From contig OY760687.1 in the NCBI GenBank assembly GCA_963663945.1, positions 2,639,918-2,703,917 of the forward strand: a stretch of 64,000 nucleotides of DNA, written 5' to 3'. The first letter of the stretch is position 1; every line of letters starts with the position of its first letter. Of the stretch, positions 17,388 through 20,375 are shown piece after piece. The DNA comes from Dehalococcoidia bacterium. GTDB taxonomy: Bacteria; Chloroflexota; Dehalococcoidia; Lucifugimonadales; UBA3495. Both the position numbers and the translations under genes were made by a program. The notes under the pieces were generated by a model. It saw nothing but the letters and a program-made list of their open reading frames with translations, made no database searches and was not told the origin of the DNA.

Positions 17388-18356
17388 ATAGTCCAGCCAG
17401 ATCAACGGGATCGTGAGATCGAAGCGCTCGAGGAACGCCTGTCGCGGCTGAGACAAGCGAACCCGAGCATCAATGAGAGCCTGGACTTCGACGCGGCGAT
17501 GGAGGGAGCTCTGGACTCTGCCCGTTTCCTCACGCGTGCGCGATACGGCGTGATGACCCTAATTGATGACGAGGGCCAGGTGCGGGACTTCCTGTCCTCG
17601 GAGATGACCGGCGAGGAAACGGAACAGGTGTGGATGATCCCGCAGAGATGACAGCTTTTCGAGTACCGGGGTTGTATCTCCGGGCCGCTGCGGATCCCAG
17701 ACCTGATGGATCAGGCCATATCAATGGGCCTTGCCGAATTCCGGCCGGCCCTGCCGGTCGGGCAGGCGGTCCCGTTTCTGGCGTCGCAGGTGTTCCACCG
17801 GGGTCAGCGGGTGGGCAACATTTTTCTGGCCGACAAGGACGGCGGCGAAGAGTTCACCCGGGCCGACGAAGAAAGTCTGGTGATGTTCGCATCCCCGGCG
17901 GCGCTGGTCATTGCCAACGCCCGCACGTACCGGGACGGTCAGCAGCCCCGAAACGATCTGGAGACCCTGGTGAACACCTCCCCAGTCGGCGTTGCCGCGT
18001 TCGACGCCCGGGCGGGGGCGCCGGCATCGTTGAACCGGGAGGCGATGCGCATCGTGGAGAGCCTGCGGGAACCTGAACAGTCGCATCAGGAACTGCTGGG
18101 GGCGGTGACCTGTGCGCGCGCCAATCGGCGCGCACTCTCGCTCTTGAATTTTCCCATGCCCGAGCTGTTGAGCGCCGGAGCAACCGTCCGATCCGAGGAG
18201 ATAGTCCTGCGCGTTCCCGACGGTCGGAGCGTGAACGTCCTCCTCAACGCAACCGCCATCCATTATAAAACCAGCGTGCCGGTTGGATTTATCGATAACC
18301 CCGCCCCACTCGAACGGGGACGCCGCTGCCAGTACTCATCACCGGCGTCGCGGTAA
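17388..18356 (+). pseudogene. Degraded, truncated paralog of the GAF-PAS hybrid kinase
   Basis: ATA in place of the start codon after RBS AAGGGGA. ERLSRLRQANPSINESLDFDA...RYGVMT, in-frame TGA near 17649, then GAF/PAS up to VLLNATAIH. Kinase, REC and wHTH domains are absent. Confidence 0.85.
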
Positions 18357-19288
18357 CCGATTTTGAAACGCTGGATCATCGCCCCCAAACCCTTTGCGGA
18401 AGTTGAAACGGGTACCTAACCAAACCCGGCACGTCTTGACGGTTTGCTGATGGACCAATCCATTCGCGGTCCAGTTGAACTCCGGGACCCCTCCCGATTA
18501 GACGGACGATAGGTCACCCCCGCCCGCTGGTCATGGAGTTCTACAGATGCGCTTCAGGTCACGGCCGTGGCGGGCCAGGTGATTTTCGGTCGGACGGTCA
18601 AGTTGCACAGTAACGCCGGAGCGGACACGGCGTCGTTACGCCGTGCGCGACCATTACGCTGGCGCCGGTTGGACCGCCCGGGTCGGCACCGAAATTGCAC
18701 AAAATTTGTGCTCGGATAAGACGGCCGGGGATCCTGGAAGAGAATCCCTGTCGGCACTCTGCGCCACGCCAGTTGCTAAAAAACTGTGGCTGCGCCGGGC
18801 ATTTGTAGCCAAACGCAACAGCCGGCACAGAACCATGCCCGTAAGACACAGCACCATGGGCCATGGTGGCCTCGGCGATGCCCTCTAACGACGGTCTGAC
18901 AAGGTGAACGTAGTCTGGAAATTCAACAACACCGGCCTGACCGTCGCCACGCTGTTCGAAACCGGGTAGAGACCCACCAGTGATGAATTCTCAGATGGCT
19001 CGGAAGGGATCACTCGCCGGCAGACTGCGCTGTGGGATTGGAAGCTTGGTCAGCCGAACCGACGACGAGGCCATCCCCAGAGTGGGGGCAGCGGCACTGG
19101 GCATTCGACGGCGCCGTGGTTCACGACAACCGCACGCTGGAGCCTCCACCGCGACCATCGGCTGACGGCTCAGCGTCCGGCGGACTCAAACCAATTCCGT
19201 CGTTCTCCATTGCTGCCATTTCATAGACGATTAACAACCGCACCGCGTGATCTGTGGATTTTTTGGTTTGCGGAGGCGGCTGGCAGTG

Positions 19289-19465
19289 TCACGACTCCTC
19301 ATGTATAGACCGTTCAACCAGCGCACGCTGGTTTTTGCTATTGGGCGCCGTTTCACCACGTTCCCACCGCCTCAAAGTACGTTCATCGATCTCGAGGCTA
19401 TGCGCGAATCGCTTTTGGCTAGTTTTCCCCGATTTCCGCACGTGCTTGATGCGCTCGCCTCTCAC
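19289..19465 (-). CDS. Small XRE/Cro-C1 helix-turn-helix protein
   Basis: RGERIKHVRKSGKTSQKRFAHSLEIDERTLRRWERGETAP; GTG start overlaps the recombinase stop (GTGA). Confidence 0.75.
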   Translation of the reverse strand: MRGERIKHVRKSGKTSQKRFAHSLEIDERTLRRWERGETAPNSKNQRALVERSIHEES

Positions 19466-20257
19466 TGACCCCGAGGAAAGGGATTGTTTGAAGTCGACCA
19501 ATATCGCGCCTGTCGCAAAGGCGGGGGAGCGCCCTTGCCCGTCTCCACCATTCCATGTAAATTCCGATATGGGGTGCGCCACACTTCGAGGTCTTCTCTG
19601 TAGTCCATCGCTTGGAAAAGTGCGTAGAAGGCTTTCATGGGCCGGAACCCCACTACCTCCCGGATTTCCAGATCAACATAGACGCTGTGGAACACCGCCA
19701 ACAACAAGCGATTGCGCTGACCGGCTTCGGCTGCTGCCCATAGTTCTTTCAGGTCGGCCAGGATCTTGACCGTCTCGGCCGCGTCATCCAGTTCCGGGAC
19801 ATAGATCGTGGTCAGTTCAGCCTCGGCGTTTTCTTTGATAATCAGATAGCGTTCCTTGGACACGTCGCCTTCCAGGTACAGTTCCTGAGCCCGCTCGATC
19901 TTTCTCTGCAGAGCCTCGCGCCTTTTGGGGCTTTCGTTCCGGTCGGTTCCTGCGACGTAGTTTTTTGACTATCCAGTCAACCCAGTCGGGCCGCAGGTTG
20001 AACCCGCGGAAGATCTAGTCGACCTGGTATTCAAACCCGCGACCGACAAACGATTGGCCGACATGAGCGCAGAGTCGGTCCGTGGCTTTTCGGGCCACCA
20101 CGTAATAGGTCTTGCCATCTTGCCCCTGTCTCTGCGACCACTGCTTCGTCCTGTACCGGTGACAGCGCAGCAGGCTAGTGAGCATGTGAGGGTTCGGGCT
20201 GGTGCGGCTGACCGAAGCCGATTTCCGGGATCGGTCGAGGGTGGTGCGTGATGGCAT
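19462..20257 (-). pseudogene. C-terminal remnant of a large serine recombinase (Zn-ribbon + coiled coil)
   Basis: PHMLTSLLRCHR...KTYY...CAH (degenerate Zn ribbon), stop near 20015, frameshift in an A-run near 19965, then REALQRKIERAQELYLEGDVSKERY...RNRLLLAVFHSVYVD...MVETG. No catalytic domain. Confidence 0.75.
19524..19550 (+). other. tmRNA/tRNA-Ala-like 3'-end fragment; putative attachment site
   Basis: ...CCCGTCTCCACCA. CGTCTCC-A-CCA would pair with a GGGGACG 5' strand including G3.U70. It is read antisense as MVETG in the recombinase tail. The T-arm part is degenerate. Confidence 0.55.
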
Positions 20258-20328: not shown

Positions 20329-20375
20329 AAAAGACGCCCCGGGGACGGGCTATGCGCCGGGTCCTTCGGGGCGTT
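20329..20375 (-). terminator. Probable terminator after the giant surface-protein gene
   Basis: ACGCCCCG...CGGGGCGT stem followed by CTTTT on the minus strand, about 25 nt past the stop at 20401. Confidence 0.45.

What the first reader, a model, noticed from the sequence alone, without database searches (positions are those of the whole stretch)
19289..20257. Serine-recombinase tail reads through a tmRNA-like att site into a translationally coupled XRE gene: a possible excision-wired switch and island boundary
Seen: the recombinase remnant encodes MVETG antisense to CCCGTCTCCACCA, continues 29 codons, and its TGA overlaps the GTG of an XRE HTH gene on the far side of the putative att site. 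Known: Dehalococcoides ssrA genomic islands use a serine recombinase (DsiB) oriented opposite to ssrA and accumulate in tandem, separated by ssrA 3' fragments. Inference: this is a junction between stacked ssrA islands. The recombinase tail and XRE would be joined to a recombinase only across attP or in tandem arrays, so the recombination state would set recombinase C-terminus and repressor expression. The adhesin region to the right would be island cargo.
Basis: partly seen in the sequence, partly recalled or inferred. Interest (0 to 1): 0.62.

Follow-up and report, generated by a model that had tools for sequence, protein, structure and literature searches.

The report
Split integrase–HTH gene at tmRNA repeat
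A 17-base copy of the end of the tmRNA gene marks a seam between stacked mobile islands in a sponge-type SAR202 bacterium, and relatives show that the islands' serine integrase gene reads across this seam into a repressor-like DNA-binding domain, so insertion cuts that domain off and excision would restore it.

Summary
Window 19538-19554 is an exact 17-nt copy of the host tmRNA 3' end. That 17-mer occurs only twice in the 3.94-Mb genome, on the same strand, 54,691 bp apart. To its right lies a dead large-serine-recombinase remnant. To its left lies an XRE-type HTH.

Intact orthologues and two sister genomes read ...TPYGEFTR(D/N)GGDG.... That frame runs on, without a stop, through a conserved linker into the HTH.

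The same recombinase-core-linker-HTH reading frame is open in ten junctions from four or more divergent arm lineages. Indels are in frame, no start codon is conserved, and the substitution pattern looks like coding sequence. An intact 555-aa recombinase sits at ssrA itself and reads antisense into the tmRNA gene. Joining that element's ends in silico gives a 598-aa recombinase-HTH protein.

Best reading: attP lies inside a recombinase-HTH gene, and integration swaps the HTH for an arbitrary ssrA-antisense tail. McMurdie et al. (2011) raised this idea for Dehalococcoides DsiB, but they did not identify the detached part. The claim that the adhesin is island cargo is not supported.

The parts
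19538..19554 (+). att core. This is an exact 17-nt direct repeat of the host ssrA 3' end plus 4 nt beyond CCA (CCCGTCTCCACCATTCC). On the minus strand it encodes (N)GGDG in the family frame.
   Evidence: a unique pair in the genome, on the same strand, 54,691 bp from ssrA.
19451..19537 (-). Linker of the arm (QGRSPAFATGAILVDFKQSLSSGSVRGE). It is in frame with the core and has no stop. It holds a motif conserved across arm lineages.
   Evidence: SPAFATGAILVDFK / PxFPTIPVLVKF / LTWPFNVRL, with in-frame indels and third-position variation; pN/pS 0.36-0.64, similar to the HTH part.
19289..19450 (-). XRE-type HTH_3 domain and stop codon. This is the 3' part of the split recombinase-HTH ORF (ORF 19289..19582).
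   Evidence: HTH_3, 29.8 bits; the homologous domain in L012 folds like the P22 c2 repressor (rmsd 0.7 A over 52 residues).
19555..20257 (-). Dead remnant of an older element's large serine recombinase ('rec3'). It covers residues ~290-517 only. The catalytic and recombinase domains are missing. It has an in-frame stop at 20015-20017, a frameshift near 19965-19970, a zinc-ribbon Cys changed to Tyr, and a 1-nt deletion near 19565 that creates the MVETG reading.
   Evidence: comparison with L010 and L224.
19462..19465 (-). It is not conserved.
   Evidence: the GTG is CTG in L010 and GTA in L012.
18260..19547 (.). Copy 2 of a 1,288-bp direct repeat. Copy 1 is genome 2606568-2607855, the right arm of the intact 3.08-kb element E1 next to ssrA. 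The central 1,226 nt are identical and all 7 differences lie at the two ends.
20335..20347 (-). Terminator-like hairpin followed by a T run, just after the adhesin stop codon (20401). It separates the adhesin transcription unit from the recombinase remnant.
   Evidence: a consensus scan only.

Best explanation
Window 19538-19554 is an attR-type scar, a copy of the tmRNA gene's 3' end, at the seam between stacked ssrA-specific integrative elements of a sponge-type SAR202 (Dehalococcoidia) genome.

The stack. ssrA (genome 2604421-2604776) is followed by an intact 3,082-bp element, E1. E1 consists of a 555-aa large serine recombinase (rec1) reading antisense into ssrA, a conserved ~65-aa upstream ORF, about 1.1 kb of spacer, and an HTH 'arm'. 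Next comes a truncated core ('mid'), then 51.6 kb of rearranged DNA, then a second copy of the arm (window 18260-19547), then the core in the window, and finally the decayed recombinase of an older element.

The proposed gene structure. In this recombinase clade the crossover site lies inside the recombinase ORF. The core is read as (N/D)GGDG. On the element's far end it is followed in the same frame by a ~26-aa linker and an XRE/P22-c2-like HTH domain.
- On the excised circle, or behind another element in a tandem array, the gene would encode recombinase-linker-HTH. This is 598 aa for E1.
- On integration the HTH part is left at attR. The recombinase instead acquires an arbitrary tail read from antisense tmRNA DNA, which is 16, 43 or 75 aa long in different hosts.

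What is shown: the repeat, the frames, the domains, the comparative conservation, and the dead state of the window's recombinase.

What is inferred: that the fusion protein is made, and that the domain swap biases integration versus excision or autoregulates the element.

The window copy is a fossil of this arrangement. Its recombinase is dead and frameshifted, so the MVETG tail and the TGA/GTG overlap have no function.
For: 1. True att repeat. The 17-mer is unique to the ssrA end and the window.

2. Intact rec1 at attL. It overlaps ssrA by 133 nt and has the Resolvase, Recombinase and Zn_ribbon_recom domains.

3. The clade is ssrA-specific. 29 of 40 homologous loci have the recombinase abutting a tmRNA gene on the opposite strand. 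Nearly all homologues read (N/D)GGDGGES(H/N)SPSR, which is antisense tmRNA.

4. The window remnant's orthologues read TPYGEFTR(D/N)GGDG (P0010, P0020, L010, L224). The window has a 1-nt deletion at that point.

5. Recombinase-core-linker-HTH is open and in one frame in ten junctions: the window ORF, mid, L010, L224, L012, L036, L089, L098, L103/P0040 and P0061. A terminal attR (L085) also has the HTH in the GGDG frame. HTH_3 was confirmed in each lineage.

6. The linker behaves as coding sequence. It has in-frame indels of 4 and 2 codons and an amino-acid motif kept with varying third positions. Its pN/pS is 0.36-0.64, against 0.30-0.57 for the HTH. No start codon or Shine-Dalgarno sequence is conserved, and the conserved motif lies upstream of every candidate in-element start.

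7. Joining E1's two ends in silico gives one 598-aa ORF.

8. An AlphaFold2 model of the natural 455-aa L012 ORF has mean pLDDT 84. The recombinase part matches solved large serine recombinases (4kis, Bxb1, PhiC31). The core-encoded Gly loop has low confidence. The last 52 residues match the P22 c2 repressor at 0.7 A.

9. McMurdie et al. 2011 (PMC3146451) reported that dsiB always overlaps attL, and they suggested it may be complete only on the circle or behind another island.
Against: - No circular form or full-length intact fusion gene was seen. All nine fusion ORFs in assemblies are at tandem junctions whose recombinase is already disrupted.
- Five arms are degenerate or out of frame: L092 (1-nt loss in a G run), L091, L044, L097/L125 and L171.
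- Lineage A keeps a TTG at arm codon 17. It could start a 70-aa stand-alone HTH protein.
- The linker pN/pS is only moderately low, and counts are small. One close pair (L010 vs L224) gives 2.2 from 7 changes.
- Nucleotide conservation next to the core could partly reflect recombinase binding to attP.
- High G+C content makes long open frames fairly likely. The chance of a linker being open and in frame is about 0.1 per independent arm (my estimate from base composition).
- The arm lineages share ancestry, so they are not fully independent.
Confidence: 0.7

Rival explanations
1. The XRE is an ordinary stand-alone small repressor gene at the right end of the island, translated from its own start that varies between lineages (for example TTG at arm codon 17 in this lineage). 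On this view the open frame back to the core is inherited accident plus att-site constraint. Recombinase-HTH fusions in assemblies would be meaningless read-through at tandem junctions.
For: A TTG at codon 17 is shared by the window, mid, L010 and L224 and gives a 70-aa HTH protein. Every observed fusion has a dead recombinase. Several arms have lost the frame.
Against: The TTG is CTG in L012. The other lineages have no start at a common position and no Shine-Dalgarno sequence. The conserved peptide motif (codons 8-21) lies upstream of that TTG. It is kept at the amino-acid level across lineages, with synonymous variation and in-frame indels. Ten of ten arms with an intact HTH are in the GGDG frame.
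Confidence: 0.17
2. Nested-gene variant. The protein that matters is a ~120-aa regulator starting at the conserved Met near the end of the recombinase ORF (...AM(A/S/D)xR...). It would span the core and end with the HTH. What integration splits would then be a repressor gene overlapping the recombinase 3' end, as in mycobacteriophage integration-dependent immunity.
For: A Met is conserved about 30-35 codons before the core in both recombinase subtypes. In the model, a helix and a strand before the core and a strand after it precede the HTH. In integration-dependent immunity attP lies inside the repressor gene (PMC9934374).
Against: No evidence for internal initiation was obtained. The Met lies in a segment conserved as part of the recombinase itself.
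Confidence: 0.08
3. The recombinase tail in the MVETG frame reads through the att site, and its TGA is translationally coupled to a GTG-initiated XRE gene.
For: The GTGA overlap exists at 19462-19465. DsiB-type recombinases of Dehalococcoidaceae really do read the core as (M/L)VETGE.
Against: In this clade the frame is GGDG, and the window reaches MVETG only through a 1-nt deletion. The gene also lacks its first ~290 codons and has a stop and another frameshift. The GTG is not conserved.
Confidence: 0.02

Closest known systems
Dehalococcoides ssrA-specific genomic islands with the serine recombinase DsiB (McMurdie et al. 2011, PMC3146451)
   Same: Both occur in class Dehalococcoidia. Both have a large serine recombinase next to attL, oriented opposite to ssrA, with an ORF that runs across attL into ssrA or the neighbouring island. 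Both form tandem stacks separated by short ssrA 3'-end direct repeats. The authors already suggested that the gene may be complete only on the circle or behind another island.
   Different: The SAR202 recombinases are only ~37-42% identical to Dehalococcoidaceae-type ones, and they read the core in another frame (GGDG rather than (M/L)VETGE). The repeat here is 17-18 bp at the extreme 3' end, not 20 bp. E1 lacks the six-gene DsiA/RecF/ParB/Mom module and has only a ~65-aa ORF plus the recombinase. The detached 3' part is identified here as a linker plus an XRE HTH domain, which the paper does not mention. The one DsiB-type arm I checked (L032) had no HTH.
Myxococcus phage Mx8 integrase (attP inside int; integration makes a new 3' end)
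   Same: The attachment site lies within the integrase coding sequence, so integration creates a recombinant gene with a different C-terminus and altered activity (review PMC6070905).
   Different: Mx8 Int is a tyrosine recombinase. The swapped part is not an identifiable HTH domain. The target is not ssrA.
Integration-dependent immunity of mycobacteriophages (attP inside the repressor gene)
   Same: The attP core lies inside the coding sequence of an HTH regulator, so integration separates its 3' part, which stays at attR. Tandem prophages arise by integration into such junctions (PMC9934374).
   Different: There the integrase is a tyrosine recombinase. The split gene is a separate repressor, and truncation removes a degradation tag and activates it. 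Here the split ORF is the recombinase itself, and the HTH is the part removed.
Structurally characterised large serine integrases (Listeria A118-type LI, Bxb1, PhiC31)
   Same: The recombinase domain, zinc ribbon and coiled-coil architecture are shared. The model matches 4kis, 9iu2 and 9rad at E 1e-7 to 1e-9. Directionality in these enzymes is set through the C-terminal region and a directionality factor (established knowledge).
   Different: None of the matched chains aligns to the C-terminal XRE HTH. In those systems attP lies outside the integrase ORF (my knowledge, not tested here).

Membership tests
Large serine recombinase | N-terminal resolvase catalytic domain with the nucleophilic serine | tested here: met
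   rec1 (genome 2604644-2606311): PF00239 at E 1.5e-32, with motif YFRVSD. The remnant in the window lacks this domain entirely, so the window copy is a dead member.
Large serine recombinase | Recombinase domain plus zinc-ribbon/coiled-coil C-terminal region | tested here: met
   rec1: PF07508 at E 7e-15 and PF13408. The L012 ORF has the same domains and its fold matches 4kis, Bxb1 and PhiC31. The window remnant aligns to this region of P0010 and P0020 at 70-81%, but with a stop, frameshifts and a lost Cys.
ssrA-specific genomic island of the DsiB kind | Integration at the ssrA 3' end, leaving a direct repeat of that end at the far boundary | tested here: met
   A 17-nt exact repeat that is a unique pair in the genome. 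An 18-nt repeat flanks E1 in sister locus L010.
ssrA-specific genomic island of the DsiB kind | Recombinase adjacent to attL, opposite to ssrA, with an ORF overlapping attL | tested here: met
   rec1 overlaps ssrA by 133 nt. The same holds in 29 of 40 homologous loci.
ssrA-specific genomic island of the DsiB kind | Six-gene integration module (DsiB, DsiA, RecF-like, ParB, Mom, RNA-polymerase-domain protein) with an embedded tRNA-like element | tested here: not met
   E1 holds only a ~65-aa ORF and rec1 in 3,082 bp. Rfam finds only tmRNA in the 6-kb locus.
ssrA-specific genomic island of the DsiB kind | Recombinase orthologous to DsiB | tested here: inconclusive
   Dehalococcoidaceae-type homologues are 37-42% identical and use a different frame across the core. 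No tree was built.
XRE / HTH_3 DNA-binding domain | Match to the family profile above the curated cut-off, and a five-helix repressor fold | tested here: met
   Window ORF: PF01381 at 29.8 bits against a cut-off of 23. Other arms score 22.5-41 bits. The L012 homologue's model superposes on the P22 c2 repressor at 0.7 A over 52 residues.
Integration-dependent (attP-in-gene) switch | attP core inside a coding sequence, so that the integrated and excised states encode different proteins | tested here: met
   Frames across the core in attL, attR and tandem junctions. The in-silico circle gives a 598-aa ORF against 555 aa when integrated.
Integration-dependent (attP-in-gene) switch | The two protein forms differ in activity or stability | not testable with these tools
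   This needs expression and recombination assays.

The most novel reading that the evidence does not exclude
These SAR202 elements may carry a self-switching large serine integrase. On the free circle the enzyme would have a C-terminal P22-c2-like HTH domain. That domain would either bind a site on the element and favour attP x attB integration, or repress the orfX-rec operon. The act of integration removes the domain, leaving an HTH-less enzyme that (with the ~65-aa upstream protein as directionality factor) is competent for excision. Directionality and expression would then be encoded in the topology of the recombination site itself. The 3.08-kb E1 would be a near-minimal autonomous integrative element built on this principle.
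Probability: 0.3. Interest if true: 0.75.

Novelty: new variant of a known kind. Interest (0 to 1): 0.6.

Why it matters
Large serine integrases are widely used genome-engineering tools, and their direction is normally set by a separate directionality factor. A natural clade in which the enzyme's own reaction adds or removes a whole DNA-binding domain would be a different and very compact way to couple recombination state to enzyme form and regulation. It would also answer a question left open for Dehalococcoides DsiB in 2011: where does the gene really end, and what is the missing 3' fragment?

Practically, the (N/D)GGDG-linker-HTH signature gives a simple marker for mapping island boundaries and tandem stacks downstream of ssrA in SAR202 and related genomes. 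E1 (3.08 kb, two genes) is a tractable candidate for testing in the laboratory.

Tried and rejected
- A class-wide HMM search with the arm alignment hit generic HTH_3 genes in 326 of 401 genomes. Only the genome's own two arms matched over the full length, so it was uninformative.
- A region search with the P0040 tail found only P0040 itself.
- The search for related loci with the six-arm alignment failed because no conserved stretch was available.
- The pattern TGGTGGAGACGGGGGAGG in genome contigs mostly caught other Dehalococcoidia tmRNA genes, which read GGDGGGSNSPS. It yielded only one new, degenerate arm, L171.
- The metagenome scan gave one locus, L224. It is a close relative of the window junction and is useful as a third in-frame orthologue.
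- Viral contigs held only DsiB-type (MVETGE) relatives, with no HTH.
- I looked for a third att repeat to the right that would bound an adhesin-carrying island. The best hit (genome 2760265, 3 mismatches in 18) lies inside a coding region with no arm, and it is at chance level.
- I tested the adhesin as conserved cargo of this recombinase type. It is adjacent only in the closest relatives L010 and L224.
- I tried to explain the 51.6-kb segment as one clean island. Its right end is orthologous to a site 1.47 Mb from ssrA in the sister genome, and its left end consists of multi-copy repeats, so its history is unresolved.
- A sigma-70 promoter scan of the element spacer found nothing.

Full report
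**Observation.** The minus strand of window 19289-20257 holds three ORFs.
- ORF 20015..20257 (80 aa) reads ...LLRCHRYRTKQWSQRQGQDGKTYY....
- ORF 19462..19863 (133 aa) ends ...YRNLHGMVETGKGAPPPLRQARYWSTSNNPFPRGQ*.
- ORF 19289..19582 (97 aa) has residues 45-84 matching Pfam HTH_3 (29.8 bits, cut-off 23).

MVETG is antisense to CCCGTCTCCACCAT. The TGA at 19462-19464 overlaps a GTG in the HTH frame.

**The att site is real.** ARAGORN finds nothing in the window, but Rfam finds the genome's single tmRNA gene at 2604421-2604776, 35 kb left of the window on the + strand (121.5 bits). It ends ...CTCTCCCCCGTCTCCACCA, followed by TTCC. The 17-mer CCCGTCTCCACCATTCC occurs exactly twice in 3.94 Mb: at that end and at window 19538-19554. 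Both copies are on the same strand, 54,691 bp apart, and no further copy appears with up to 2 mismatches. About 5e-4 copies are expected by chance.

**What lies at ssrA.**
- An intact 555-aa large serine recombinase (rec1; Resolvase + Recombinase + Zn_ribbon_recom) lies on the minus strand at 2604644-2606311.
- It overlaps the tmRNA gene by 133 nt and reads the core as ...LTGNGGDGGESHSPSR....
- A conserved ~65-aa ORF overlaps its start and is found upstream of the recombinase in ten other loci. It has no Pfam family.
- A 1,288-bp segment at genome 2606568-2607855 is repeated at window 18260-19547. The central 1,226 nt are identical, and all 7 differences lie at the two ends.
- The left copy ends in a truncated core, CTCCCCCGTCTCCA|GGCAGG ('mid').

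ssrA, rec1, the small ORF, a ~1.1-kb spacer and the HTH arm together form a 3,082-bp unit, E1.

**The sister genome.** In a sister MAG (L010, recombinase 96% identical) the same unit is 3,084 bp. It is flanked by an 18-nt direct repeat (CTCCCCCGTCTCCACCAT). It sits directly between ssrA and the orthologue of the window's recombinase remnant, which is followed by the same adhesin gene. The window junction is thus the seam between a younger element's right arm and an older, decayed element.

**The extra DNA in this genome.** Here an extra 51.6 kb plus a second arm copy lies in between. Its right end is orthologous (93%) to DNA 1.47 Mb from ssrA in the sister genome. Its left end consists of multi-copy repeats. 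I could not resolve its history. Possible routes are arm-arm homologous recombination, gene conversion, or IS activity.

**The family.** Homologues come almost only from Dehalococcoidia / SAR202 / Chloroflexota MAGs. In 29 of 40 loci the recombinase abuts a tmRNA gene on the opposite strand (19 by ARAGORN, 10 more by homology to the Rfam-validated gene). Nearly all proteins read (N/D)GGDGGES(H/N)SPSR, which is antisense tmRNA. The tails are 16, 43 or 75 aa long depending on the host tmRNA, so the tail is arbitrary. More distant Dehalococcoidaceae-type (DsiB-like, 37-42% identity) recombinases read the same core as (M/L)VETGE.

**The window remnant.** It corresponds to residues ~290-517 of the intact orthologues P0010 and P0020 (70-81% identity). 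It carries the following lesions:
- the first ~290 codons, including the catalytic domain, are missing;
- there is an in-frame stop at 20015-20017;
- there is a frameshift near 19965-19970;
- a zinc-ribbon Cys has been lost;
- there is a 1-nt deletion near 19565.

The orthologues, including the same junction in two relatives (L010, L224), read ...VWPTPYGEFTR(D/N)GGDGGG.... MVETG and the TGA/GTG overlap are therefore by-products of decay. The GTG itself is CTG in L010 and GTA in L012.

**The key point.** The family frame (GGDG) is the frame of ORF 19289..19582, which continues without a stop into the HTH.
- The same recombinase-core-linker-HTH continuity is seen in ten junctions: the window ORF, mid, L010, L224, L012 (a natural 455-aa ORF with Recombinase + Zn ribbon + HTH_3), L036, L089, L098, L103/P0040 and P0061.
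- A terminal attR (L085) has its HTH in the GGDG frame although the upstream flank is unrelated.
- The arms fall into at least four divergent lineages (31-57% identity). They differ by in-frame indels of 4 and 2 codons.
- They share a hydrophobic motif (SPAFATGAILVDFK / PxFPTIPVLVKF / LTWPFNVRL) with third-position variation.
- No start codon is conserved. The motif lies upstream of every candidate in-element start.
- pN/pS of the linker (0.36-0.64 in most pairs) resembles that of the HTH (0.30-0.57).
- Joining E1's ends in silico gives one 598-aa ORF ending ...LTGNGGDGGGLSPAFATGAILVDFK...HTH.
- The AlphaFold2 model of the L012 ORF (mean pLDDT 84) shows a confident recombinase part that matches solved serine integrases, a low-confidence loop at the core-encoded Gly run, a short strand in the linker motif, and a confident four-helix end. 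That end superposes on the P22 c2 repressor at 0.7 A over 52 residues.

**Limits.**
- All nine fusion ORFs seen in assemblies sit at tandem junctions whose recombinase is already disrupted. By contrast, 14 of 21 ssrA-proximal recombinases are intact.
- No circle was seen.
- Five arms are degenerate or frame-shifted. One of them, L092, differs by a single G in a homopolymer, in a long-read-style MAG assembly, judging from the record names.
- Lineage A keeps a TTG at arm codon 17.
- The functional consequence of the swap is inference.

**Literature.** McMurdie et al. 2011 described the Dehalococcoides ssrA islands. They noted that dsiB always overlaps attL, and they speculated that it may be complete only on the circle or behind another island. 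They identified no detached domain. attP inside a gene is also known for Mx8 int and for mycobacteriophage repressors. My searches found no description of a serine recombinase-HTH gene split by integration, but the library is incomplete. Earlier unchecked notes of this scan report similar attP-in-ORF serine integrases at tmRNA genes in other phyla, one of them with an HTH tail. I treat these as leads that agree with this reading, not as support.

**Verdict.** It is wrong about the coupling mechanism, and the adhesin-as-cargo claim is unproven. The window copy is a fossil. The interest lies in the family-level architecture it exposes.

Noticed in passing
L083:2781-2975 (genome 2606280-2606474, minus strand): A conserved ~65-aa ORF (MDTKEKSPDYPLEVRMFLAELGEAVQEYLEQRR...DESGGIFSGE) overlaps the recombinase start codon. 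It is found upstream of the recombinase in ten other loci and has no Pfam family. It is a candidate recombination directionality factor.
   Followed up: partly
window 18260-19547 and genome 2606568-2607855: All 7 differences in the 1,288-bp direct repeat lie within 40 nt of one end or 22 nt of the other, and the central 1,226 nt are identical. This pattern suggests recent gene conversion or homologous recombination between two originally different arms.
   Followed up: partly
genome 2607856-2658176 (window up to 18259): The 51.6-kb segment between the two arm copies holds two inverted copies of a 500-aa transposase gene (genome 2621386-2622888 + and 2633394-2634896 -) and other repeats. Its right end is orthologous to a locus 1.47 Mb from ssrA in the sister genome.
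   Followed up: partly
window 17706-18356: A 216-aa ORF is a paralogue (83% nt identity) of a gene at genome 3185011-3186156. It loses that homology at the left boundary of the 1,288-bp repeat (window 18260), so it looks truncated there.
   Followed up: no
L009, L010, L011, L018-L021, L026, L030: ARAGORN does not call the tmRNA gene of this SAR202 subgroup. Rfam scores the own-genome copy at 121.5 bits, and these loci are 84-96% identical to it, so tmRNA-based island finders that rely on ARAGORN would miss them.
   Followed up: partly
P0002, P0003; L012:10001-11458: A 508-aa subclass of the recombinase diverges after about residue 400 and stops before any ssrA-type core. One such gene sits 202 kb from ssrA, yet with an ssrA-type core and HTH arm at its element's other end. 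It may have changed target or been rearranged.
   Followed up: no
L032, L033, L034, L037, L040, L225, L226: Dehalococcoidaceae-type (DsiB-like) recombinases read the tmRNA core as (M/L)VETGE. In L226 (a viral-collection contig) the tail after VETGE is not ssrA antisense, so that junction may be an attP or tandem form of that clade.
   Followed up: partly
L103:8260-13165: The island whose HTH arm is fused to P0040 carries an N6/N4 methyltransferase, an Mrr/NOV_C-like protein and a weak CD-NTase-like gene, so its cargo looks like defence genes.
   Followed up: no
window 20335-20347 (minus strand): A terminator-like hairpin with a T run lies 54 nt after the adhesin stop codon, between the adhesin and the recombinase remnant.
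   Followed up: no
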